This document shows positions 86 to 6,272 of a stretch of 64,000 nucleotides of DNA, in pieces (position 1 is the first letter of the stretch; every line of letters starts with the position of its first letter). Origin of the DNA: a virus. The notes below the pieces were generated by a model. The model had not been told where the DNA came from, did not search any database, and saw only the letters and a list, made by a program, of their open reading frames with translations. The translations under genes were made by a program, and so were the position numbers. The stretch spans positions 1-64,000 of IMG/VR virus record IMGVR_UViG_3300027917_000034; one strand, written 5' to 3'.

Positions 86-120
86 GACCGCCTCCTTTCG
101 TGGTCAGAAAACTCTACCAG

Positions 121-203
121 TGCGAGCGAGAGGAGTCGAACCTCCACGCCCTCTCGGGCACCTGGGTTTGAGCCAGGCGTGTCTGCCGTTTCACCACGCT
201 CGC
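121..203 (-). tRNA. tRNA-Leu(CAA)
   Basis: Cloverleaf with long variable arm; anticodon arm CCTGG-CT CAA AC-CCAGG. Confidence 0.93.
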
Positions 204-204
204 G

Positions 205-284
205 TACCCGCTGCGGGACTCGAACCCGCACGCACGAGGCGCCGGGGTTTAGGCCCGGTGTGTCTGCCGTTCCACCAAGCGGGC
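205..284 (-). tRNA. tRNA-Leu(TAA), with C33
   Basis: Cloverleaf with long variable arm; CCGGG-CC TAA AC-CCCGG. Confidence 0.88.
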
Positions 285-288
285 TCGG

Positions 289-373
289 TGCTACGGAGAG
301 GAGTCGAACCTCCACGGGGACTATGCCCCACCAGCCCCTCAAGCTGGCGTGTCTACCATTTCACCACCGTAGC
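289..373 (-). tRNA. tRNA-Leu(GAG)
   Basis: CCAGC-TT GAG GG-GCTGG; long variable arm. Confidence 0.93.
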
Positions 374-377
374 GTAG

Positions 378-460
378 TGCCAGGGAGAGGAGTCGAACCT
401 CCACGACCTTTCGGCCACTCGGTTCTGAGCCGAGCGCGTCTACCATTTCACCACCCTGGC
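378..460 (-). tRNA. tRNA-Leu(CAG)
   Basis: CTCGG-CT CAG AA-CCGAG; long variable arm. Confidence 0.93.
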
Positions 461-464
461 ATAG

Positions 465-535
465 TGGGCACAGAGGGACTCGAACCCCCGACTCTTGGGT
501 GTAGGCCAAGAATGATCCCATTTCACCATGCGCCC
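465..535 (-). tRNA. tRNA-Val(TAC), with C33
   Basis: CTTGG-CC TAC AC-CCAAG; T arm GGTTCGAGTCC. Confidence 0.85.
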
Positions 536-545
536 ATGAAAACTC

Positions 546-622
546 TGGTCGGGCAGAAGGGATTTGAACCCCCGACCTCCGCGTCCCGAACGCGGCGTGC
601 TCCCAGACTGCACCACTGCCCG
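546..622 (-). tRNA. tRNA-Pro(CGG)
   Basis: CCGCG-TT CGG GA-CGCGG; C1:G72; encoded CCA. Confidence 0.93.
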
Positions 623-683
623 ATGTTGATCGGCTGGTAGGGCGTGGCCCTCTCTACCGCCGCACTTTGGACCGGCCGATCGG

Positions 684-754
684 TGGCAACGGAGGGAATC
701 GAACCCTCTTGATCGCGGATATGAGCCGCGTCCCCTAGCCCGTAGGTCGCTGCC
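684..754 (-). tRNA. tRNA with CAT anticodon (Met or Ile2), atypical D arm
   Basis: CGCGG-CT CAT AT-CCGCG; good acceptor and T arms; D arm is non-canonical. Confidence 0.72.
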
Positions 755-755
755 G

Positions 756-831
756 AGGCGGGGGCTGGATTTGAACCAGCGATCTCTTGGTTATGAGCCA
801 AGTGGGGACGACCAGGCTCCCCTACCCCGCA
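756..831 (-). tRNA. tRNA-Met(CAT), initiator-like
   Basis: TGCGGGG...CCCCGCC with a 1:72 mismatch; CTTGG-CT CAT AA-CCAAG; overall fMet-like body. Confidence 0.85.
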
Positions 832-905
832 GGCGCGCTCGCCGGGACTCGAACCCGGATTCCTGGCTTCGGAGGCCAGTGCCCTATCCTTTGGACGACG
901 AGCGC
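832..905 (-). tRNA. tRNA-Arg(CCG)
   Basis: CTGGC-CT CCG AA-GCCAG. Confidence 0.92.
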
Positions 906-1111
906 TTGATCTGATCGGCCAACGCATCCGCCTCTCTCGCGGCCTTGCGGTAGTGCTCTACGCCACGGCGTAGACACTCCTCGCAGTTGACCTCTGCCAA
1001 GCGTTTCAGCCCGGCCAACTCGACTCCTTTCCGTGTGTAGATCTCGTGACCCTCCACCCCGCAGAAAGCTCCACGGTAAGGGCTCACGAGATGAACCACT
1101 GACGGTTCCAT
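884..1111 (-). CDS. small putative Zn-binding protein inside the tRNA array
   Basis: RBS GGGAGGG before ATG 1111; VH..CG...VNCEECL motif, similar to ORF 13025-13273; the stop codon lies inside tRNA-Arg(CCG). Confidence 0.55.
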   Translation of the reverse strand: MEPSVVHLVSPYRGAFCGVEGHEIYTRKGVELAGLKRLAEVNCEECLRRGVEHYRKAAREADALADQIKRSSSKG

Positions 1112-1125
1112 GACGCCCTCCCTTC

Positions 1126-1199
1126 GGAGACCCCGGCCGGACTCGAACCGGCATTCCAAGGTTCGTAGCCTTGTGCCCTATCCTTTGGACGACGGGGCC
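1126..1199 (-). tRNA. tRNA-Arg(ACG)
   Basis: CAAGG-CT ACG AA-CCTTG. Confidence 0.92.
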
Positions 1200-1201
1200 A
1201 G

Positions 1202-1273
1202 CGCTCCCACGAGGACTCGAACCCCGATCCACGGGTTAGAAGCCCGGTGCCCTATCCGTTGGACGATGGGAGC
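1202..1273 (-). tRNA. tRNA-Arg(TCT)
   Basis: CGGG-CT TCT AA-CCCG. Confidence 0.9.
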
Positions 1274-1274
1274 G

Positions 1275-1348
1275 TGGAGGCGCAGGGCGGAGTCGAACCG
1301 CCGACTGGAGGGTTGCAACCTCCCGTCTTTCCGTTTGACCACTGCGCC
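1275..1348 (-). tRNA. tRNA-Cys(GCA)
   Basis: GGAGG-TT GCA AC-CCTCC; U73; encoded CCA. Confidence 0.93.
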
Positions 1349-1351
1349 AGA

Positions 1352-1484
1352 GGCCGACAAGGGATTGCGAGAGACGTTTACGTGCTCTGCCACTGAGCTA
1401 CCGCCTCCATAGAGGGGAGGCGGACGGGGATCGAACCCGCGACCACGCGCTTACAAGGCGATGTACTCCCACGAGCATTCGGCC
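1352..1484 (-). ncRNA. Y RNA 1 (YrlA-like; T arm, closed acceptor, D arm order)
   Basis: GGCCGAATGC...CTTGTCGGCC terminal stem with GNCGAANG motif; internal T arm GGTTCGATCCC, acceptor hairpin CCGCCTCC/GGAGGCGG, D arm TAGCTCAGTGGCAGAGC; close to the TROVE gene. Confidence 0.88.
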
Positions 1485-1558
1485 GGAGCCGGCTACGGGA
1501 CTCGAACCCGTTTCTCGGGCTTGGGAAGCCCGCGCCTCACCTGTTTGGCCTAGCCGGC
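1485..1558 (-). tRNA. tRNA-Gly(CCC)
   Basis: CGGGC-TT CCC AA-GCCCG; U73; abuts Y RNA 1. Confidence 0.9.
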
Positions 1559-1605
1559 AGTTGGGCGCCCCCGGGGGACAGGGGCGCCCGTTCGATCAAG
1601 TGGGG

Positions 1606-3234
1606 TTAGTTGGTAGCCAGGTCGATGCCGTCGATGATCTCCAGCCACGACCCGGTGTCACCAGCGAGGAAGGAGCTTGCGACCTTGAACACCGCGTCAC
1701 TCCAGCCGGACACTTGCAGGATCTCCGGGTGGTTCCCGTCGATCTGATGCGTGCGCCCGGGGGTGATGTCGATGCACACCAGCTTCGCGTCCCGGTTGCG
1801 GTTCCGCAGCGTCTCCCACTCGTGCATGAGAGCCGTTCCGCTCCCGTAGCCCCAATAGCCCCTGTCGGCCCATGACTCGTAGTCCGAGATGACCACGACG
1901 TGATCGACCTTCAGGCGCCGCTGGTTCACGTGGTTGAACGCAGCGCTCAGAGCCGTTCCACCTCCACCGAATCGGGCGAGCCGATCGGCTTCGGTCAGAA
2001 GCGGGTTCCGAGGCTCCGGACGGTAGCCGGTGTGGACCGACGTATCGACCGGGAGAACGGCTGCGTCACGGTTCTGACGCAGGTACGACGCAGAGAACAG
2101 CGCCGCGACGTCCACGCACCGGACCTTGGTGGCCACCTGCTCCATGCGACCCGTCTTCCGGTTCCGCTTGAAGCCTGTGACCGGGCTCCGCATCGACCCG
2201 GAGACGTCCACGACGATCAGCGTCCGGCCCTCTGCGACCGGGGCGTTCTCGGTGGCAATCTCCATGGCGTCGTGGAGAGCGTCCACGATCTTGCGAGGCA
2301 CGTCCGGGTGGATGTGCTTGTAGGCCGCGAGCAACTGGTACGGCATGACCCGGGCCTTCTGGATCGACTCCCGGTCCCGCAAGCGGTCCGCGATGAAGTC
2401 CTCCATGCCGGGGTCGGCCTTCAGAACCCCGTGCCGCAGAGCGGTGTTGAGGTTCATCCGGATGAAGTGCCACTGCCCGTTGCGGAAGATCTGCGCCCAC
2501 TGCTCGCCCGTGAGGGGCTCTGCCGTGAGCAACTGGAAGTCCACCGGAGGCGATGGCAGGCTCTTGTCTGCCTTCCACTCCTCGTACTGCCGGACGAGCG
2601 GCGGGAGATTCTTCCAGCCCTTCTTCCGCCGATCCTTCTCGCCCTTTCCGATCATGTACCCGAACAGCGCCTCGTGCTCCGGAGAAGCCGGGCTCGGGTG
2701 GACCATCTTCACGATGTCCGCGCCGGATGGGTCTTGACCGACCGACAGTTGACGGAACAGCCAGTTGGGCTTGTTCCTGGAGAAGAAGCCCCGGACGAGG
2801 TTCCGTGGCCCGGTGCCCAGCGACTTCCGACCGAGCTTTCCACTCCGCATCATCTGGACGAAGTTGCGGAGCATCTTCCCGTTGTCGATGACCTGCGGGA
2901 ATGCGGCCTTCAGGGCTGCGCGTCCGTTGTCACCACGAGAGGCCAGGACCGCCATGAGCAAGGCCGGCATGTCCTTCATGTAGCCTTCCTTGCGCGTGAA
3001 GATCGCCAGCTTCGCGATGAAGTCGGAGTCGCACTCCTTCGCCAGAGCGAGCACGCGGTCCAGGTGGTCCTCGGCGTTCACGTAGAACGTGTCCGAGAGG
3101 CACCCTGTCATCGCGTACCGAGCCAGGGCTTGCTTGGAGCCGAGAGCGTATGCCTTGCCCCCGGCTGCGTTCACTGCGTCTGCTGCCTTGACCGTCCGCC
3201 CACGGGACGATCCGAAAAGAGACTTGTTCGCCAT
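1606..3234 (-). CDS. rsr: TROVE-domain Ro60/Rsr RNA-binding protein with C-terminal vWA domain
   Basis: N-terminal 'N.AGG.AY......L..Y..TG.L..TFY' and 'GYMKDMPALL' segments typical of bacterial Ro60; vWA MIDAS 'VDVSGSM', 'GGGT', 'ISDYESW'; RBS GGAAGGGAGG before ATG 3234. Confidence 0.93.
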   Translation of the reverse strand: MANKSLFGSSRGRTVKAADAVNAAGGKAYALGSKQALARYAMTGCLSDTFYVNAEDHLDRVLALAKECDSDFIAKLAIFTRKEGYMKDMPALLMAVLASRGDNGRAALKAAFPQVIDNGKMLRNFVQMMRSGKLGRKSLGTGPRNLVRGFFSRNKPNWLFRQLSVGQDPSGADIVKMVHPSPASPEHEALFGYMIGKGEKDRRKKGWKNLPPLVRQYEEWKADKSLPSPPVDFQLLTAEPLTGEQWAQIFRNGQWHFIRMNLNTALRHGVLKADPGMEDFIADRLRDRESIQKARVMPYQLLAAYKHIHPDVPRKIVDALHDAMEIATENAPVAEGRTLIVVDVSGSMRSPVTGFKRNRKTGRMEQVATKVRCVDVAALFSASYLRQNRDAAVLPVDTSVHTGYRPEPRNPLLTEADRLARFGGGGTALSAAFNHVNQRRLKVDHVVVISDYESWADRGYWGYGSGTALMHEWETLRNRNRDAKLVCIDITPGRTHQIDGNHPEILQVSGWSDAVFKVASSFLAGDTGSWLEIIDGIDLATN

Positions 3235-3347
3235 GATCGACCTCCCTTCCGCCAACAGTGCGGCGCTTTCATGGCTGCCTTCCCCACCTACAGGCGTGGG
3301 GTGGCAATCTCCTATCGCTACCAGGTAGCGATTGGATAGTCAAGAGT

Positions 3348-3500
3348 GCCCTGACAAGTGAGCGCGAGAGCGTTTTTTTCAGCTTCCGGCCCATGATTCA
3401 GGCTCCGAGGAGCCGGCGGGCCGGGACAGGATTTGAACCTGCAACCTTTGATTTAGGAGATCAATGCTGTACCGATGTACTCCCACTAGGCATTCAGGGC
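3348..3500 (-). ncRNA. Y RNA 2 (tRNA domain opened in the D-loop; intact Arg-CCT-like anticodon arm)
   Basis: GCCCTGAATGC...CTTGTCAGGGC; internal GGTA-CAGC, TTGAT-CTCCTAA-ATCAA, T arm, acceptor CCGGCCC/GGGCCGG, then GCTG. Confidence 0.85.
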
Positions 3501-3573
3501 GGTGCTGGTAGGGGGAGTCGAACCCCCATCTTCAGGGTGGAAACCTGACGTCCTGCCGTTGAACGACACCAGC
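3501..3573 (-). tRNA. tRNA-Gly(TCC)
   Basis: TCAGG-TT TCC AC-CCTGA. Confidence 0.88.
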
Positions 3574-3576
3574 AAA

Positions 3577-3699
3577 GGCCGACAAGAGATGGTCGAGATA
3601 AGCGCCCCCGAAGGGCACCCGCCACAGAGCGGCCCCCGAAGGGGCCTTGGCGGCGGGCAAAGGATTTGAACCAATGTAATCCCGTCCGAGCATTCGGCC
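3577..3699 (-). ncRNA. Y RNA 3 (T loop, acceptor-like stem and UUCG hairpins)
   Basis: GGCCGAATGC..GGGATTACAT..ATCTC..CTTGTCGGCC; GGTTCAAATCC; two TTCG-capped hairpins. Confidence 0.82.
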
Positions 3700-3774
3700 G
3701 GAGCCCCGAGCGGGAATCGAACCCGCCATCTCCGCCATACCAAGGCGGCGAATCACCGTTGATTCATCCGGGGC
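3700..3774 (-). tRNA. tRNA-Thr(GGT)
   Basis: CCGCC-TT GGT AT-GGCGG. Confidence 0.85.
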
Positions 3775-3777
3775 AGA

Positions 3778-3905
3778 GGATCGACAAGGTGGGCGCGAGG
3801 CTATGCCTTTACCAAGGTTAGGCTACCTGGCCATGGAAAGCTCCGAGGAGCGGTGGCCAGGGGTGGATTTGAACCATCAAAGTAGTCCCGCAAGGCATTC
3901 GATCC
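3778..3905 (-). ncRNA. Y RNA 4 (YrlA-like)
   Basis: GGATCGAATGC...CTTGTCGATCC (compensatory stem); T arm TGGTTCAAATCCA, acceptor CCTGGCCA/TGGCCAGG, D arm TAGCCT..AGGC. Confidence 0.86.
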
Positions 3906-3907
3906 AG

Positions 3908-3978
3908 TGGAGCCGGGGGGAATCGAACCCCCATCCCCTGGGTGCAAACCAGGTGCTCTCCCGTTGAGCTACGGTCCC
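3908..3978 (-). tRNA. tRNA-Ala(TGC)
   Basis: CCTGG-TT TGC AC-CCAGG; G3:U70. Confidence 0.92.
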
Positions 3979-3981
3979 ATT

Positions 3982-4124
3982 GCGGCGACAAGGGTTGCAG
4001 AGATCGTACCTCCGGGGGTGTTCGCCCCGGCGCTCTGATTGAGCTATAGGCGCAGGACTGCACGGTGTTACCCGCCGCCCCTGCTGGAGCACCTAACGAT
4101 GTATTCCCCGCCTGCATTCGCCGC
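3982..4124 (-). ncRNA. Y RNA 5 (tRNA domain opened in the T-loop)
   Basis: GCGGCGAATGC...CTTGTCGCCGC; ATCGT-TAGGTGC-TCCA...GCGCCTA-TAGCTCAATCAGAGC-G-CCGGGG/CCCCGG-AGGT-ACGAT. Confidence 0.85.
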
Positions 4125-4127
4125 GTA

Positions 4128-4204
4128 GGAGACTGACCAGGGGTCGAACCTGGAAGCGCACGAGCCGATCGGTCTCCCGCACGCCGTCCGTCTCTTCAAT
4201 CTCC
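4128..4204 (-). ncRNA. tRNA-like RNA lacking a D stem, with an extended anticodon-position helix
   Basis: GGAGATTGA/TCAGTCTCC acceptor-like stem, T arm CCAGG-TTCGACC-CCTGG, helix GCGTGCGGG/CTCGTGCGC; no 7-nt anticodon loop. Confidence 0.6.
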
Positions 4205-4206
4205 GG

Positions 4207-4280
4207 TGGATCGTGCCGGGGTCGAACCGGCGACCTCCGCGATGCGAACGCGGCGCTCTCCCACACTGAGCTAACGACCC
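4207..4280 (-). tRNA. tRNA-Ala(CGC)
   Basis: CCGCG-TT CGC AT-CGCGG; G3:U70. Confidence 0.92.
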
Positions 4281-4284
4281 ATGA

Positions 4285-4352
4285 GGCCGACAAGGAACGG
4301 TGAGACGACGGTTTTTCTCCAACGAAAATGTAGTCCCTCCAAGCATTCGGCC
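4285..4352 (-). ncRNA. Y RNA 6 (minimal, Ro-binding module only)
   Basis: GGCCGAATGC TTGGA GGGACTACAT...GTCTC...CTTGTCGGCC; 68 nt, no tRNA arms. Confidence 0.8.
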
Positions 4353-4354
4353 GG

Positions 4355-4427
4355 TGGAGTCGGAGGGGCTTGAACCCTCGGCCTTCGGTCTGCCAGACCG
4401 ACGCTCTCCCAACTGAGCTACGACCCC
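4355..4427 (-). tRNA. tRNA-Ala(GGC)
   Basis: TCGGT-CT GGC AG-ACCGA; G3:U70. Confidence 0.92.
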
Positions 4428-4495
4428 ATCCACAACCCGTCAGGGGGGCTGCGGCGTATGAGAATGCGACCGGGACAGAACCCTTGTCGTCGCGG

Positions 4496-4567
4496 TGGGC
4501 GTGGAGGGATTTGAACCCCCGATCTTCTGCGCGTCGAGCAGACGTCTTTCCACTTGACCACACGCCC
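4496..4567 (-). tRNA. tRNA-Val(GAC), with C33
   Basis: TCTGC-TC GAC GC-GCAGA. Confidence 0.85.
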
Positions 4568-4569
4568 TC

Positions 4570-4644
4570 TGGTACCCCGCCCCGGACTCGAACCGGGATT
4601 CGCCGGCTTATAAGGCCGGTGCAGTACCCTTGTGCTAGCGGGGC
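4570..4644 (-). tRNA. tRNA-Ile(TAT)
   Basis: CCGGC-CT TAT AA-GCCGG; encoded CCA. Confidence 0.87.
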
Positions 4645-4692
4645 TCCGAGTTTTCGGAGCCCGGTATTCGCCTCATCATTGGAACCCCCTTC

Positions 4693-4767
4693 TGGTGCCC
4701 AGGGACGGAATCGAACCGTCGTTCTCGCACTTATCAGGCGCGCGTCTTGCCACTCGACCACCCGGGC
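4693..4767 (-). tRNA. tRNA-Ile(GAT)
   Basis: CGCGC-CT GAT AA-GTGCG; encoded CCA. Confidence 0.92.
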
Positions 4768-4768
4768 A

Positions 4769-4844
4769 TGGAGCCCCCGGCCGGACTCGAACCGGCATCC
4801 TCTCGGGTAGGAGCCGAGCGCACGTCCTGTCGTGCTACGGGGGC
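4769..4844 (-). tRNA. tRNA-Arg(CCT)
   Basis: CTCGG-CT CCT AC-CCGAG; encoded CCA. Confidence 0.9.
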
Positions 4845-4845
4845 A

Positions 4846-4923
4846 TGGGGTGATCGATGGGACTCGAACCCACTAGGGCCGGGATCACAACCCGGTGCCG
4901 CGACCACTTTGGCTTCGACCACC
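4846..4923 (-). tRNA. tRNA-His(GTG)
   Basis: CCGGG-TT GTG AT-CCCGG; G-1:C73; encoded CCA. Confidence 0.92.
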
Positions 4924-4927
4924 ATGA

Positions 4928-5056
4928 GAGCCGACAAGGAACCGATGAGATCGTGAGTCATTCTATGGGCAGGACTCGAACCTGCTTCTCCGGGATTGCC
5001 CGGCGCTTTTCCTCATAAGCTACCTCAGAGATGTAATCCCGCCGTGCATTCGGCTC
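4928..5056 (-). ncRNA. Y RNA 7 (unpermuted cloverleaf attached through the acceptor stem; 4-nt loop in place of the anticodon)
   Basis: GAGCCGAATGC...CTTGTCGGCTC; D arm TAGCTT..AAGC, CCGGG-CAAT-CCCGG, T arm GCAGGTTCGAGTCCTGC. Confidence 0.85.
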
Positions 5057-5130
5057 GGTACCAGCGCCGGGACTTGAACCCGATCCTCTCGGTCCACAGC
5101 CGAGCGCGCCACCCGTTGCGCCTCGCTGGC
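5057..5130 (-). tRNA. tRNA with GTG anticodon lacking His identity elements
   Basis: CTCGG-CT GTG GA-CCGAG; A73 and no G-1. Confidence 0.75.
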
Positions 5131-5131
5131 A

Positions 5132-5217
5132 TGGTCCCCCGAGAAGGAATCGAACCTCCCTGGCCATACGACGACGGGGTTACAGCCCGCCCACCATCCA
5201 TAGGTGTCTATCGGGGG
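5132..5217 (-). tRNA. tRNA-Tyr(GTA) with C1:G72
   Basis: GCGGG-CT GTA AC-CCCGT; long variable region; acceptor CCCCCGA/TCGGGGG-A-CCA. Confidence 0.85.
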
Positions 5218-5226
5218 AAAACTCAG

Positions 5227-5300
5227 TCCGCGTGGAGGGATTTGAACCCCCGTCTTCCGGCTCCCAAAGCCGGCGCCCGACCAGGCTGGGCCACACGCGG
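5227..5300 (-). tRNA. tRNA-Pro(TGG)
   Basis: CCGGC-TT TGG GA-GCCGG. Confidence 0.92.
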
Positions 5301-5301
5301 A

Positions 5302-5376
5302 TGGTGGAGAGCCCCGGAATCGAACCGAGATTCGCGGATTTTCAGTCCGCTGCTCTACCGATTGAGCTAACTCTCC
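5302..5376 (-). tRNA. tRNA-Phe(GAA)
   Basis: GCGGA-CT GAA AA-TCCGC; encoded CCA. Confidence 0.94.
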
Positions 5377-5377
5377 A

Positions 5378-5455
5378 TGGCGGGGATGACGGGATTTGAA
5401 CCCGCGATCTTCTGCGTGACAGGCAGATGTCCTACCCAGGCTAGACCACATCCCC
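5378..5455 (-). tRNA. tRNA-Asp(GTC)
   Basis: TCTGC-CT GTC AC-GCAGA; G73; encoded CCA. Confidence 0.94.
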
Positions 5456-5459
5456 AAAA

Positions 5460-5568
5460 GGCCGACAAGATCGATGAGAGCTTTTACATGCCGGACTCGA
5501 ACCGGCTAGGTTTGGTTGATAGCCAAATTGTGAACCAATCACGATGTACTCCCACCCGGCATTCGGCC
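5460..5568 (-). ncRNA. Y RNA 8 (unpermuted cloverleaf attached through the acceptor stem; ATC anticodon loop)
   Basis: GGCCGAATGC...CTTGTCGGCC; TACAT/ATGTA stem, GTGA-TTGGT-TCAC, TTTGG-CTATCAA-CCAAA, GCCGGTTCGAGTCCGGC. Confidence 0.85.
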
Positions 5569-5643
5569 TGGCAGGTCACTGAGGAATCGAACCCCACAGA
5601 CGTCCGGGTTTGGAGCCCAGACCGCGTACCCAGCGCGTGACCC
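5569..5643 (-). tRNA. tRNA-Trp(CCA), short D arm
   Basis: CTGGG-CT CCA AA-CCCGG; G73; encoded CCA. Confidence 0.82.
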
Positions 5644-5723
5644 AGAGCGTCTCCGTCCAGGGCGTATCCATGGAACGAGTCGCTTCATGCGTCTCTCGGA
5701 GACGTGGCAGCATCCCGAAGGTC

Positions 5724-5780
5724 GCTGCCCCCACTGGTACCGTTGCTCCCTTTCGGGCCTGGCGGTCCTTGGTGGGCCAG
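5724..5780 (-). ncRNA. SRP RNA (4.5S/helix 8)-like element
   Basis: CCGCCAGGCCC-GAAA-GGGAGCAACGG has the CAGG/GNRA/AGCA signature of SRP domain IV; closed by CCCAC/GTGGG. Confidence 0.72.
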
Positions 5781-5853
5781 CATCGGAGGCAGGGATCGAA
5801 CCTGCACTGACGCGGGGTCAAAGCCCGCCGCTCTACCGTTGAGCTACTCCGAT
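5781..5853 (-). tRNA. tRNA-Gln(TTG)
   Basis: GCGGG-CT TTG AC-CCCGC. Confidence 0.88.
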
Positions 5854-5864
5854 ATGAAAACTGC

Positions 5865-5937
5865 GGCTCGGGCGCGAGGACTCGAACCTCGATTAGCGGG
5901 GCCAGAACCCGCCGTCCTGCCATTAGACGACGCCCGA
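5865..5937 (-). tRNA. tRNA-Gln(CTG)
   Basis: GCGGG-TT CTG GC-CCCGC; U1:A72. Confidence 0.92.
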
Positions 5938-5938
5938 A

Positions 5939-6014
5939 TGGTGGGTCCACCGGGACTCGAACCCAGATCGTCCGATTAAGAGTCGGAGGCGTTGCCAATT
6001 ACGCTCATGGACCC
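5939..6014 (-). tRNA. tRNA-Lys(CTT)
   Basis: TCCGA-CT CTT AA-TCGGA; encoded CCA. Confidence 0.92.
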
Positions 6015-6019
6015 GTGAA

Positions 6020-6094
6020 GGCTGGCCAGGTGGGACTCGAACCCACAACATCCCGGTTAACAGCCGGGCGCTCTACCAGGTGAGCTTCTGGCCA
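6020..6094 (-). tRNA. tRNA-Asn(GTT)
   Basis: CCCGG-CT GTT AA-CCGGG. Confidence 0.92.
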
Positions 6095-6199
6095 ATATGC
6101 CCCGGGGCCGGGTGAGCCCCGGGGCGAAGATGCTCGGTTGTCACAGACCGTTCGGCCGTCGCCGGCAGGTTCACAATCGGAACCTGCTTCTTCGATCGG

Positions 6200-6272
6200 T
6201 GGGGGCAACAGGGCTCGAACCTGCTCAGACCGGATTAAAAGTCCGGTGCCCGTCCTGTCGGGCGCTACCCCC
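6200..6272 (-). tRNA. tRNA-Lys(TTT)
   Basis: CCGGA-CT TTT AA-TCCGG. Confidence 0.88.

What the first reader, a model, noticed from the sequence alone, without database searches (positions are those of the whole stretch)
3982..4124. Y RNA 5: Ro-binding stem replaces the T-loop, with an internal discriminator and CCA
Seen, in 5'-3' order: T-stem 3' strand ATCGT, acceptor 3' strand TAGGTGC, T-CCA, a structured linker, acceptor 5' strand GCGCCTA (7 bp including one G:U), TA, D arm GCTC-AATCA-GAGC, G, anticodon-position hairpin CCGGGG-CGAACA-CCCCGG, AGGT, T-stem 5' strand ACGAT. This is the layout of a circularly permuted tRNA gene. Inference: RNase P plus 3' trimming could remove the linker and give a two-piece RNA with a free CCA end. 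It lacks the T-loop/D-loop elbow typical of YrlA RNAs, so its partner is probably different.
Basis: partly seen in the sequence, partly recalled or inferred. Interest (0 to 1): 0.82.

Follow-up and report, generated by a model that had tools for sequence, protein, structure and literature searches.

The report
Phage Y RNA with T-loop-less tRNA-Ala mimic
A marine-sediment phage encodes, beside its Ro60 gene, a small RNA that joins the usual Ro60 docking stem to a tRNA-alanine look-alike at the point where a tRNA's T-loop would be; the design is kept in a related phage and is a new variant of the known tRNA-mimicking Y RNAs.

Summary
On the minus strand, 4124-3979 reads Y-RNA stem, 5-bp stem, acceptor 3' strand, U-CCA, 31-nt linker, acceptor 5' strand, UA, D arm, G, 6-bp hairpin, AGGU, return strand, Y-RNA stem. 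One correction: the hairpin loop is CGAACAC, 7 nt.

A related phage contig (L149, Rsr 77% identical) has the same element in the same slot. Of 44 pairs, 6 changed on both sides and kept pairing. RNAalifold predicts the same fold on its own.

It is one of seven RNAs with the Rsr-type handle next to a phage Ro60/Rsr gene inside a 35-tRNA operon. It is a Y RNA, but not a canonical YrlA: there is no T arm and no G18/G19, and it scores 18.9 bits against a 69-bit threshold.

New here: the acceptor arm has G3:U70, which in this array is otherwise found only in the three tRNA-Ala genes that surround the element. That pair and the UCCA are the same in both phages.

Cutting by RNase P into a two-piece, CCA-ended RNA has a precedent in M. 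smegmatis YrlA. It is untested here, and the covarying linker hairpin argues partly against it. No RNA data exist.

Earlier notes of this scan describe phage Y handles at the anticodon loop, acceptor end and D-loop on other DNA. None of those retrieved has it at the T-loop.

The parts
3979..4124 (-). The whole Y RNA (146 nt). Its 5' end lies 3 nt after the upstream tRNA-like element. Its 3' end abuts G1 of tRNA-Ala(UGC).
4118..4124 (-). Handle stem 1, 5' strand GCGGCGA. It overlaps the Rsr-type motif GNCGAAN0-1G (GGCGAAUG, 4115-4122).
   Evidence: Sequence. Motif as defined in PMC4201824. One compensatory change in L149.
3982..3988 (-). Handle stem 1, 3' strand UCGCCGC, preceded by the conserved CCUUG (3989-3993).
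4106..4111 (-). Handle stem 2, 5' strand GCGGGG(A), followed by the conserved bulge AAUAC (4101-4105). This is the shared GGGANUAC motif.
   Evidence: Pattern has 7 matches in the window against 0 expected
3997..4002 (-). Handle stem 2, 3' strand CUCUGC.
4096..4100 (-). Stem 3 at the T-stem position, 3'-side strand AUCGU.
   Evidence: Two compensatory changes in L149 (AUUGC/GCAAU)
4003..4007 (-). Stem 3 at the T-stem position, 5'-side strand ACGAU.
4089..4095 (-). Acceptor-like stem, 3' strand UAGGUGC (tRNA positions 66-72).
   Evidence: 7 bp with GCGCCUA. G3:U70 is kept in L149. One compensatory and two one-sided changes.
4085..4088 (-). Discriminator U73 plus CCA. Identical in L149.
4054..4084 (-). 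31-nt linker. Three unpaired nt (GCA) are followed by a two-part hairpin, RNA positions 44/45-48 with 67-70/71 and 50-53 with 60-63. The hairpin ends next to acceptor G1.
   Evidence: Two compensatory and two one-sided changes in L149
4047..4053 (-). Acceptor-like stem, 5' strand GCGCCUA (tRNA positions 1-7). The predicted RNase P site lies between 4054 and 4053.
   Evidence: The cleavage itself is inferred.
4032..4046 (-). U8-A9 and the D arm GCUC-AAUCA-GAGC. The loop is 5 nt and has no G18/G19.
   Evidence: The loop is also 5 nt in L149 (AACAA).
4012..4031 (-). G26 and the anticodon-position hairpin CCGGGG-CGAACAC-CCCCGG.
   Evidence: The stem is invariant and the loop sequence is not conserved (UAUGCAA in L149).
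4008..4011 (-). Variable-region linker AGGU (A44, G45, G46, U48).
   Evidence: Identical in L149
4125..4204 (-). Neighbouring tRNA-like element that travels with this Y RNA as one cassette.
   Evidence: Present with it in L149, absent with it in L152, replaced with it in the X4/X5 relative. 97.5% identical to L149.
1606..3255 (-). Phage Ro60/Rsr gene, same strand, 724 nt downstream. The database protein P0001 has 542 aa, which suggests the start is the ATG at 3234.
   Evidence: TROVE and vWA_Ro60 domains. 7814 relatives, many named 60 kDa SS-A/Ro.

Best explanation
This is a genuine Y RNA of the phage's Ro60 (Rsr) operon, and selection has kept its fold. It has two parts. The first is the handle shared by all seven Y RNAs of the array: stem 1 with GGCGAAUG, an internal loop, stem 2, an AAUAC bulge and stem 3. 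This is the part that docks Rsr. The second is a cargo that forms, with stem 3, a tRNA-type four-way junction. In that junction stem 3 takes the place of the T-stem, so the handle with Rsr sits where the T-loop/D-loop elbow of a tRNA would be. The other three arms are a 7-bp acceptor arm with the tRNA-Ala identity pair G3:U70 followed by U73-CCA, a D arm shortened to a 5-nt loop, and an anticodon-position hairpin. The RNA is cut out of the polycistronic transcript by the tRNA-processing enzymes that act on its neighbours. My committed reading of the next step is that, as in M. smegmatis YrlA, RNase P cuts 5' of acceptor G1 (between 4054 and 4053) and 3' trimming stops at the encoded CCA. That would give a two-piece RNA of about 40 nt and 75 nt, held together by about 25 bp, which presents a free tRNA-Ala-like acceptor end tethered to Rsr. 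This end would engage proteins that read the acceptor end, AlaRS first among them, and not proteins that read the elbow. Shown: the sequence, the conserved fold, the context and the G3:U70/UCCA conservation. Inferred: Rsr binding, all processing steps and any charging.
For: Context: there are 35 tRNAs. A TROVE/vWA_Ro60 gene is on the same strand. Seven copies of CGAAUGC-N-GGGANUAC occur against 0 expected. The Rfam YrlA model aligns the handle with high posterior probability, and two sister elements score 57 and 38 bits. Fold: the MFE structure, RNAalifold and pair counts on the window/L149 alignment agree. The counts are 44 pairs, 98.9% of cells paired, 6 compensatory and 6 one-sided changes, and slid controls with 0 compensatory changes. 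Overall, 18 of 19 substitutions at paired positions keep the pair, although only 110 of 146 columns are identical. tRNA likeness: the junction linkers are 0/2/1/4 nt and the core nucleotides are kept (sequence). The descriptor is nearly unique in 2.2 Mb. Alanine identity: G3:U70 occurs only in the three tRNA-Ala genes among the 34 array tRNAs checked. The element lies between tRNA-Ala(CGC) and tRNA-Ala(UGC) in both phages. G3:U70 is the same in both copies, and the L149 loop UAUGCAA carries UGC in anticodon register. Processing: the acceptor arm is 7 bp and stacks on a 5-bp stem, and UCCA is identical in both copies. In the array, 10 of the 34 tRNAs checked encode NCCA and most others NCC. M. 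smegmatis YrlA is cut by RNase P and bears CCA in vivo, and the authors attribute this to its 7-bp acceptor stem (PMC4201824).
Against: There is no RNA evidence of any kind, and the host is unknown. Only two sequences carry the design, so the covariation rests on a single comparison. The linker is a covarying hairpin that pairs up to position -2 (or -1) of the proposed cut site. That would hinder RNase P and suggests the linker is kept. The T-loop/D-loop elbow that bacterial RNase P uses for substrate binding is missing. S. Typhimurium YrlA and D. radiodurans Yrn1 are not cut (PMC4201824). The discriminator is U, whereas the array's tRNA-Ala genes all have A73. The identical UCCA is weak evidence when 75% of all columns are identical. 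The body does not resemble tRNA-Ala more than tRNA-Phe or tRNA-Gln. Rfam scores it at 18.9 bits against a 69-bit threshold. The single-sequence energy z-score is -1.43.
Confidence: 0.45

Rival explanations
1. It is the same conserved Y RNA, but it stays in one piece. The 'acceptor' is a capped arm as in Salmonella YrlA. The linker hairpin stacks on it, and UCCAGCA is a 7-nt bulge in a long rod made of the linker hairpin, acceptor arm, stem 3 and handle. Rsr binds the handle. The D/anticodon branch and the bulge form a binding surface for an unknown partner, or simply make a nuclease-resistant body.
For: The linker hairpin has 2 compensatory and 2 one-sided changes. It is joined to acceptor G1 by 0-1 nt, which favours coaxial stacking and disfavours leader access for RNase P. 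The elbow is missing. Most YrlAs that have been studied are not cut (PMC4201824). Other capped YrlAs also carry NCCA in the cap: L004, L057 and Sagittula L258. So an encoded CCA need not mean a free end.
Against: The exact 7-bp + 5-bp tRNA geometry, G1, UCCA and G3:U70 are all kept. There is no obvious reason for that if the end is never exposed. The one YrlA with a 7-bp acceptor arm that has been tested is cut. The hairpin could be kept only to prevent misfolding of a GC-rich precursor.
Confidence: 0.35
2. It is a structured RNA of the tRNA operon that does not work through Rsr. For example, it could be a decoy or sponge for a host enzyme or defence toxin that acts on tRNA-Ala or on acceptor ends. 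In that case the handle would be only an inherited scaffold.
For: The cassette (this RNA plus the neighbouring tRNA-like element) is gained, lost or swapped independently of Rsr. It is absent in L152 and replaced by 127 other letters in the X4/X5 relative.
Against: The handle is the best-conserved part. The Rsr motif is intact, and stem 1 shows a compensatory change. All seven sister RNAs keep the handle beside rsr.
Confidence: 0.1
3. It is a split or permuted tRNA-Ala gene whose product decodes on the ribosome after processing.
For: The layout has the 3' half before the 5' half, with an intervening sequence at the acceptor end, as in permuted tRNA genes (PMC3978253). It also has G3:U70 and CCA.
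Against: There are no T-loop nucleotides at all. The anticodon stem is 6 bp, U33 is missing (G in the window, A in L149), and the loop sequence differs between homologs. ARAGORN and the Rfam tRNA model do not call it. No joining mechanism based on the bulge-helix-bulge (BHB) splicing motif is known in bacteria. The array already has three tRNA-Ala genes.
Confidence: 0.03
4. It is a decaying recombination relic between a tRNA gene and a Y RNA, with no function.
For: The array is modular and recombines. The energy z-score is unremarkable.
Against: 18 of 19 substitutions at paired positions preserve pairing in sequences that are only 75% identical. A relic would not do this.
Confidence: 0.04

Closest known systems
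YrlA Y RNAs of bacteria and actinophages (Rfam RF02553; Chen et al. 2014, PMC4201824; Wang et al. 2018, 10.1101/312249), especially M. smegmatis YrlA
   Same: It is encoded beside Ro60/Rsr on the same strand. It has a 5' GNCGAAN0-1G motif in a bulged terminal stem and a tRNA-like effector module with a capped acceptor arm and a D arm. M. smegmatis YrlA has a 7-bp acceptor arm, is cut by RNase P, and ends in CCA as a two-piece Rsr-bound RNA.
   Different: In YrlA the handle continues from the anticodon stem, and the T arm/D arm elbow is the conserved hallmark. Here the handle continues from the T-stem position. There is no T arm or V arm and no G18/G19, and an anticodon-position hairpin is present. 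The whole NCCA is encoded, and the acceptor arm has G3:U70. It scores 18.9 bits against the 69-bit gathering threshold.
D. radiodurans Yrn1, and the sister RNA at window 4923-5056
   Same: These are Y RNAs whose tRNA-like part is wired to the handle in a different order from YrlA. The literature already notes that the orientation of the arms differs between Yrn1 and YrlA.
   Different: In those RNAs the handle joins at the acceptor end and a T arm is kept. Here it joins at the T-stem and the acceptor end is internal.
Two-piece tmRNA from circularly permuted ssrA genes (reviewed in PMC3985003 and PMC3978253)
   Same: The gene order is acceptor 3' strand-CCA, intervening segment, acceptor 5' strand. 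It has G3:U70, and its maturation is tRNA-like. tmRNA is a non-decoding RNA that presents an alanine-type acceptor end.
   Different: This RNA has no T arm, no pseudoknots and no tag reading frame. ARAGORN does not call it. Its partner is Ro60/Rsr, not SmpB or the ribosome. Its processing is unproven.
Circularly permuted tRNA genes of red and green algae and one archaeon (PMC3978253)
   Same: The 3' half lies upstream of the 5' half, with an intervening sequence at the acceptor end that RNase P and RNase Z remove.
   Different: Those genes encode complete tRNAs that are re-joined through a circular intermediate at a BHB motif. Here the T-loop is not encoded and the two halves are bridged permanently by the Y handle.

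Membership tests
Y RNA (Ro60/Rsr partner RNA) | Encoded next to a Ro60/Rsr gene on the same strand | tested here: met
   The Rsr gene at 1606-3255(-) has TROVE and vWA_Ro60 domains. It lies 724 nt downstream in the same operon.
Y RNA (Ro60/Rsr partner RNA) | The 5' and 3' ends pair in a bulged stem that carries GNCGAAN0-1G on the 5' strand | tested here: met
   GGCGAAUG lies at 4115-4122. Stems 1 and 2 are conserved, with one compensatory change.
Y RNA (Ro60/Rsr partner RNA) | Bound by Ro60/Rsr | not testable with these tools
   This needs co-immunoprecipitation or a gel shift.
YrlA (Rfam RF02553) | Score at or above the family's gathering threshold | tested here: not met
   18.9 bits against 69. 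Only the handle and the D stem align.
YrlA (Rfam RF02553) | A T arm and a D arm that form a tRNA elbow, with the handle continuing from the anticodon stem | tested here: not met
   The T-arm columns of the model are deleted. The D loop is 5 nt without GG. The handle joins at the T-stem position.
YrlA (Rfam RF02553) | Capped acceptor-like arm | tested here: met
   A 7-bp arm closed by a 35-nt segment of UCCA plus linker.
Circularly permuted tRNA gene | 3' half upstream of the 5' half, with an intervening sequence at the acceptor end | tested here: met
   The order was read directly from the sequence and is the same in L149.
Circularly permuted tRNA gene | Encodes all parts of a tRNA, which are re-joined into a cloverleaf | tested here: not met
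   No T-loop is encoded. ARAGORN and the Rfam tRNA model make no call.
tRNA-Ala / alanine acceptor identity | G3:U70 wobble pair in the acceptor stem | tested here: met
   G3:U70 is present in the window and in L149. Within the array it is otherwise exclusive to the three tRNA-Ala genes.
tRNA-Ala / alanine acceptor identity | Discriminator A73 and an NGC anticodon in a canonical 7-nt loop with U33 | tested here: not met
   The discriminator is U73 in both copies. The loops are CGAACAC and UAUGCAA, with no U33. Only L149 has UGC in register.
tRNA-Ala / alanine acceptor identity | Charged by AlaRS | not testable with these tools
   This needs an aminoacylation assay.
Two-piece (permuted) tmRNA | tRNA-like domain with a T arm, plus pseudoknots and a tag reading frame | tested here: not met
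   ARAGORN finds no tmRNA in the window. The only tmRNA_permuted match, at 3625-3932 with 21.9 bits, lies elsewhere and is below threshold.

The most novel reading that the evidence does not exclude
The RNA is opened by RNase P and charged with alanine by the host AlaRS. The result would be a Ro60 particle that carries an aminoacylated, or at least CCA-ended, tRNA-Ala acceptor arm without an elbow. Such a particle could recruit or titrate proteins that read tRNA acceptor ends, such as AlaRS, EF-Tu, the CCA-adding enzyme, or host defence toxins that modify or cut tRNA 3' ends. It could bring them to Rsr and its nuclease partners, or keep them away from the phage's own tRNAs.
Probability: 0.1. 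Interest if true: 0.85.

Novelty: new variant of a known kind. Interest (0 to 1): 0.55.

Why it matters
What the tRNA-like domain of bacterial and phage Y RNAs binds is still open. The YrlA structure paper points to the conserved D/T elbow as the likely contact site (10.1101/312249). This RNA is a natural counter-example. It has the same Rsr handle in the same operon, but the elbow is deleted while an acceptor arm with alanine identity and an encoded CCA is kept. Comparing it with its canonical sisters in one phage would separate elbow-dependent functions of Ro-tethered tRNA mimics from functions that depend on the acceptor end. It also shows that the Y handle can be grafted onto a tRNA body at yet another position. 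That supports the view that these RNAs are built by modular recombination between tRNA genes and a constant Rsr-docking stem.

Tried and rejected
Expression data: no RNA holder is listed for this stretch. The runs that could be laid are DNA contigs only, so nothing can be said about ends or processing.

More homologs. These searches found nothing of this type:
- Megablast and blastn against 50,697 cultured-phage records gave no match.
- nhmmer of the element against 108 Y-handle loci gave nothing.
- IMG/VR pattern scans for handle+CCA found only chance hits. The scan for the D/anticodon block found two ordinary tRNAs. The scan for the conserved neighbour element found nothing.
- A GTDB genome scan for handle+CCA gave 31 hits: two canonical YrlAs and chance matches.
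- Covariance model R1 was run over about 1.9 Mb of Rsr and Y-handle loci and over three related phage records. Only the two training sequences score above 40 bits, and the rest match through the handle alone.

Relatives that were no help:
- The five closest phage records by DNA polymerase (72-85% identical, L138-L141 and L143) have no Rsr gene and no Y handle.
- Rsr proteins 74-86% identical exist (P0002, P0003, P0008).
- The 127 letters that replace the cassette in the X4/X5 relative are not printed by read laying.

Other checks:
- No CCA-adding enzyme (PF01743) and no RtcB (PF01139) were found in the 82-kb record. The record is only 48% complete, so this is uninformative.
- Pfam scans of 20 further window ORFs showed no RNA-processing partner.
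- A loose, handle-anchored structural scan was too noisy to use.

Readings considered and rejected:
- The extra hairpin is not a displaced T arm. Neither loop has the U54/A58 pattern, and the two loops differ.
- A cryptic canonical YrlA fold is not present. The Rfam alignment deletes the T arm.

Full report
WHAT THE WINDOW IS. The window is the first 64 kb of an 82-kb IMG/VR phage record that CheckV rates 48% complete. Sequencing runs that hold it come from marine sediment. It encodes a DnaB-like helicase, a primase, a UvsX-like recombinase, a DNA polymerase and a portal protein. On the minus strand, 120-6272 holds 35 tRNA genes. The same strand carries a 549-codon ORF (1606-3255) with TROVE and Ro60-vWA domains. 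That ORF has thousands of Ro60/Rsr relatives.

Between the tRNAs lie seven RNAs that share the module CGAAUGC-N3-9-GGGANUAC on the 5' side. There are 7 matches against 0 expected. On the 3' side they share NUCUC...CUUGUCG. The Rfam YrlA model scores two of them at 57.1 and 37.7 bits, and scores the finding at 18.9 bits, against a threshold of 69. The shared 5' motif is the GNCGAAN0-1G that Chen et al. proposed as the Rsr contact (PMC4201824). Phage-encoded Ro60 proteins with Y RNAs are known from mycobacteriophages, CcrColossus, Bacillus phage G and Thermus phage phiLo (PMC12135203).

THE OBSERVATION. Read 5' to 3' on the minus strand from 4124 to 3979, the RNA has these parts:
- GCGGCGA (stem 1), AUGCAG, GCGGGG (stem 2), AAUAC
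- AUCGU (stem 3)
- UAGGUGC, then U-CCA, then a 31-nt linker
- GCGCCUA, UA, GCUC-AAUCA-GAGC, G
- CCGGGG-CGAACAC-CCCCGG, AGGU
- ACGAU (stem 3), CUCUGC (stem 2), AACCCUUG, UCGCCGC (stem 1), AAU

The MFE fold gives the claimed four-way junction, although its energy is not unusual for this composition (z = -1.43).

The linkers around the junction are 0 nt (stem 3 to acceptor), 2 nt (UA), 1 nt (G) and 4 nt (AGGU). That is the pattern of a class I tRNA if stem 3 is read as the T-stem. The tRNA core nucleotides U8, A9, A14, A15:U48, A21, G26:A44, G45 and G46 are all present. The elbow nucleotides are all missing: G18, G19 and the whole T-loop. The D loop equals that of the array's tRNA-Phe (AAUCGGUA) without GGU.

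A strict descriptor of the layout hit only this element in about 1 Mb of window plus loci, both strands. A relaxed descriptor over 2.2 Mb, both strands, hit this element, its homolog, and two chance hits on ordinary tRNA 5' halves.

A HOMOLOG AND COVARIATION. An alignment of the closest Rsr proteins was used to scan JGI metagenome contigs. Contig Ga0316577_10001865 (L149) has an Rsr 77% identical to the window's and the same array order. At L149 5326-5470, between the same tRNA-like element and tRNA-Ala(UGC), it carries the same RNA.

Only 110 of 146 columns are identical. Even so, 98.9% of the cells in my 44 pairs are standard pairs. Six pairs changed on both sides: stem 1 once, stem 3 twice, the acceptor arm once and the linker hairpin twice. 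Six more pairs changed on one side to or from G:U. When the 3' partners are slid by 1-3 columns, no pair is compensatory and 32-55% of cells pair. RNAalifold, given only the alignment, returns the same helices.

These features are identical in both copies: UCCA, the G:U at acceptor position 3:70, AGGU, UA, G26, the 5-nt length of the D loop and the 7-nt length of the hairpin loop. The hairpin loop sequence differs (CGAACAC against UAUGCAA). This is one pairwise comparison, so the evidence is good but thin.

DISTRIBUTION. The element is rare and behaves as a cassette together with the 80-nt tRNA-like element upstream of it (4125-4204).
- Both are present in the window and in L149.
- Both are absent in L152 (Rsr 73% identical), where tRNA-Ala(CGC) and tRNA-Ala(UGC) lie 6 nt apart.
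- In a roughly 93%-identical array in two other marine-sediment studies, window 3993-4203 is replaced by 127 other letters. Only the last 14 nt of the Y RNA are kept.
- Phages that are 72-85% identical in DNA polymerase have neither Rsr nor Y handles.
- A covariance model of the two copies found no third copy in about 1.9 Mb of Rsr and Y-handle loci or in three related phage records. Pattern scans of IMG/VR and of one genome per prokaryote species found none either.

WHAT IT IS. It is a Y RNA, not a tRNA gene and not a canonical YrlA. In the Rfam consensus, stem 3 opens into a multiloop with a T arm, a capped acceptor arm and a D arm, so the handle stands for the anticodon stem. YrlAs also carry a V arm (PMC4201824). 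In this RNA the model's T-arm columns are deleted. The same handle stem 3 stacks directly on the acceptor arm, and a hairpin follows the D arm.

The sister RNA at 4923-5056 joins its handle to a whole tRNA-like body through the acceptor end. Chen et al. already noted that Yrn1 and YrlA differ in arm order. So the handle is constant and the cargo is wired to it in different ways, and the T-stem junction is one more way. Earlier notes of this scan describe handles at the anticodon loop, at the acceptor end and in the D-loop of phage RNAs on other DNA. These are unchecked leads. None of those retrieved has the T-loop version.

THE ALANINE CONNECTION (new here). The single G:U of the acceptor arm is G3:U70. 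Among the 34 array tRNAs checked, that pair is exclusive to the three tRNA-Ala genes. In both phages the element sits between tRNA-Ala(CGC) and tRNA-Ala(UGC). Both copies have the pair although three other acceptor pairs changed. The L149 loop has UGC in anticodon register.

It is established knowledge that G3:U70 is the main AlaRS identity element. It works in minihelices without an anticodon or elbow, and it is why tmRNA is alanylated (PMC3985003). Three points count against this reading. The discriminator is U, not the A73 of the array's tRNA-Ala genes. Positions 2:71 are C:G. The rest of the body is no closer to tRNA-Ala than to tRNA-Phe or tRNA-Gln.

HOW IT PROBABLY WORKS. The following is inferred from the tight packing and from standard tRNA processing. 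RNase P cleavage at G1 of tRNA-Ala(UGC) (3978) would make the RNA's 3' end. 3' processing of the upstream tRNA-like element would make its 5' end. In this array 10 of the 34 tRNAs checked encode NCCA. Most of the others encode NCC followed by the G1 of the next unit.

Rsr binding to the handle is inferred from homology.

The open question is the acceptor arm.
- For cutting: the arm has exactly 7 bp stacked on 5 bp, then G1 and UCCA. The only YrlA with a 7-bp arm that has been tested (M. smegmatis) is cut by RNase P at that place. It is found in Rsr immunoprecipitates as two halves, one ending in CCA.
- Against cutting: there is no elbow for the RNase P specificity domain. The linker is a covarying hairpin joined to G1 by 0-1 nt, which should stack on the acceptor arm and leave UCCAGCA as a bulge. 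Some canonical, presumably uncut YrlAs also have NCCA in their caps.

I put the two-piece form at about 45% and the one-piece form at about 35%. In either form the module cannot engage factors that read the T/D elbow, which is the conserved feature of YrlAs (10.1101/312249). It does display an acceptor end and an anticodon-position hairpin next to Rsr.

VERDICT. The structural reading, that a Ro-binding stem stands in place of the T-loop and that a discriminator and CCA lie inside the RNA, is supported by a conserved and covarying homolog. The 'permuted tRNA gene' label holds for the layout only. Processing and the partner are untested. This is a new variant of a known kind (Y RNAs that mimic tRNA). 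It is of moderate interest because it gives a natural, elbow-less and alanine-flavoured contrast to canonical YrlAs within one operon.

Noticed in passing
window 4125-4204 (-); L149 5247-5325: The tRNA-like element just upstream has an acceptor-like stem and a T arm but no normal D or anticodon arm. ARAGORN and the Rfam tRNA model do not call it. It is 97.5% identical between the two phages, while the flanking tRNAs and Y RNAs are 69-93% identical. It is gained, lost or replaced together with the finding's Y RNA.
   Followed up: partly
window 3993-4203, in runs X4/X5: A roughly 93%-identical array in other marine-sediment metagenomes has 127 unrelated letters in place of this cassette. It also skips several other units: 4316 to 4493 and 4579 to 4919. 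The array is a set of swappable units.
   Followed up: partly
records G001-G005, which hold loci L138-L141 and L143: Phages whose DNA polymerase is 72-85% identical to the window's have no Rsr gene and no Y handle, including one 185-kb record rated 88% complete. The Rsr/Y RNA block appears to be an accessory module.
   Followed up: partly
window 4923-5056 (-); L149 4392-4460: This sister Y RNA contains a whole tRNA-like body (4961-5029, which ARAGORN calls 'tRNA-???' with a 5-nt loop). The body is joined to the handle through its acceptor end. It is conserved in L149.
   Followed up: partly
L004 11627-11762; L057 5975 (-); L258 (Sagittula sp.) 2181 (-): Canonical YrlA-type RNAs in other phages and in a bacterium also have ACCA directly after the 7-bp acceptor 3' strand, inside the cap. 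So encoded NCCA recurs in the family.
   Followed up: partly
window 120-6272 (-): The units are packed so that the G1 of the next tRNA or Y RNA follows NCC of the previous tRNA. Of the 34 tRNAs checked, 10 encode NCCA and most of the others NCC. One RNase P cut could therefore make both ends.
   Followed up: partly
window 5709-5789 (-): There is a weak match to bacterial small SRP RNA (30.4 bits against a threshold of 40, E = 0.0025). It lies in the strongly folding 136-nt spacer 5644-5779.
   Followed up: no
window 4428-4493: The Y-handle motifs occur in inverted orientation: CGACAAGG reads on the minus strand. I did not examine it.
   Followed up: no
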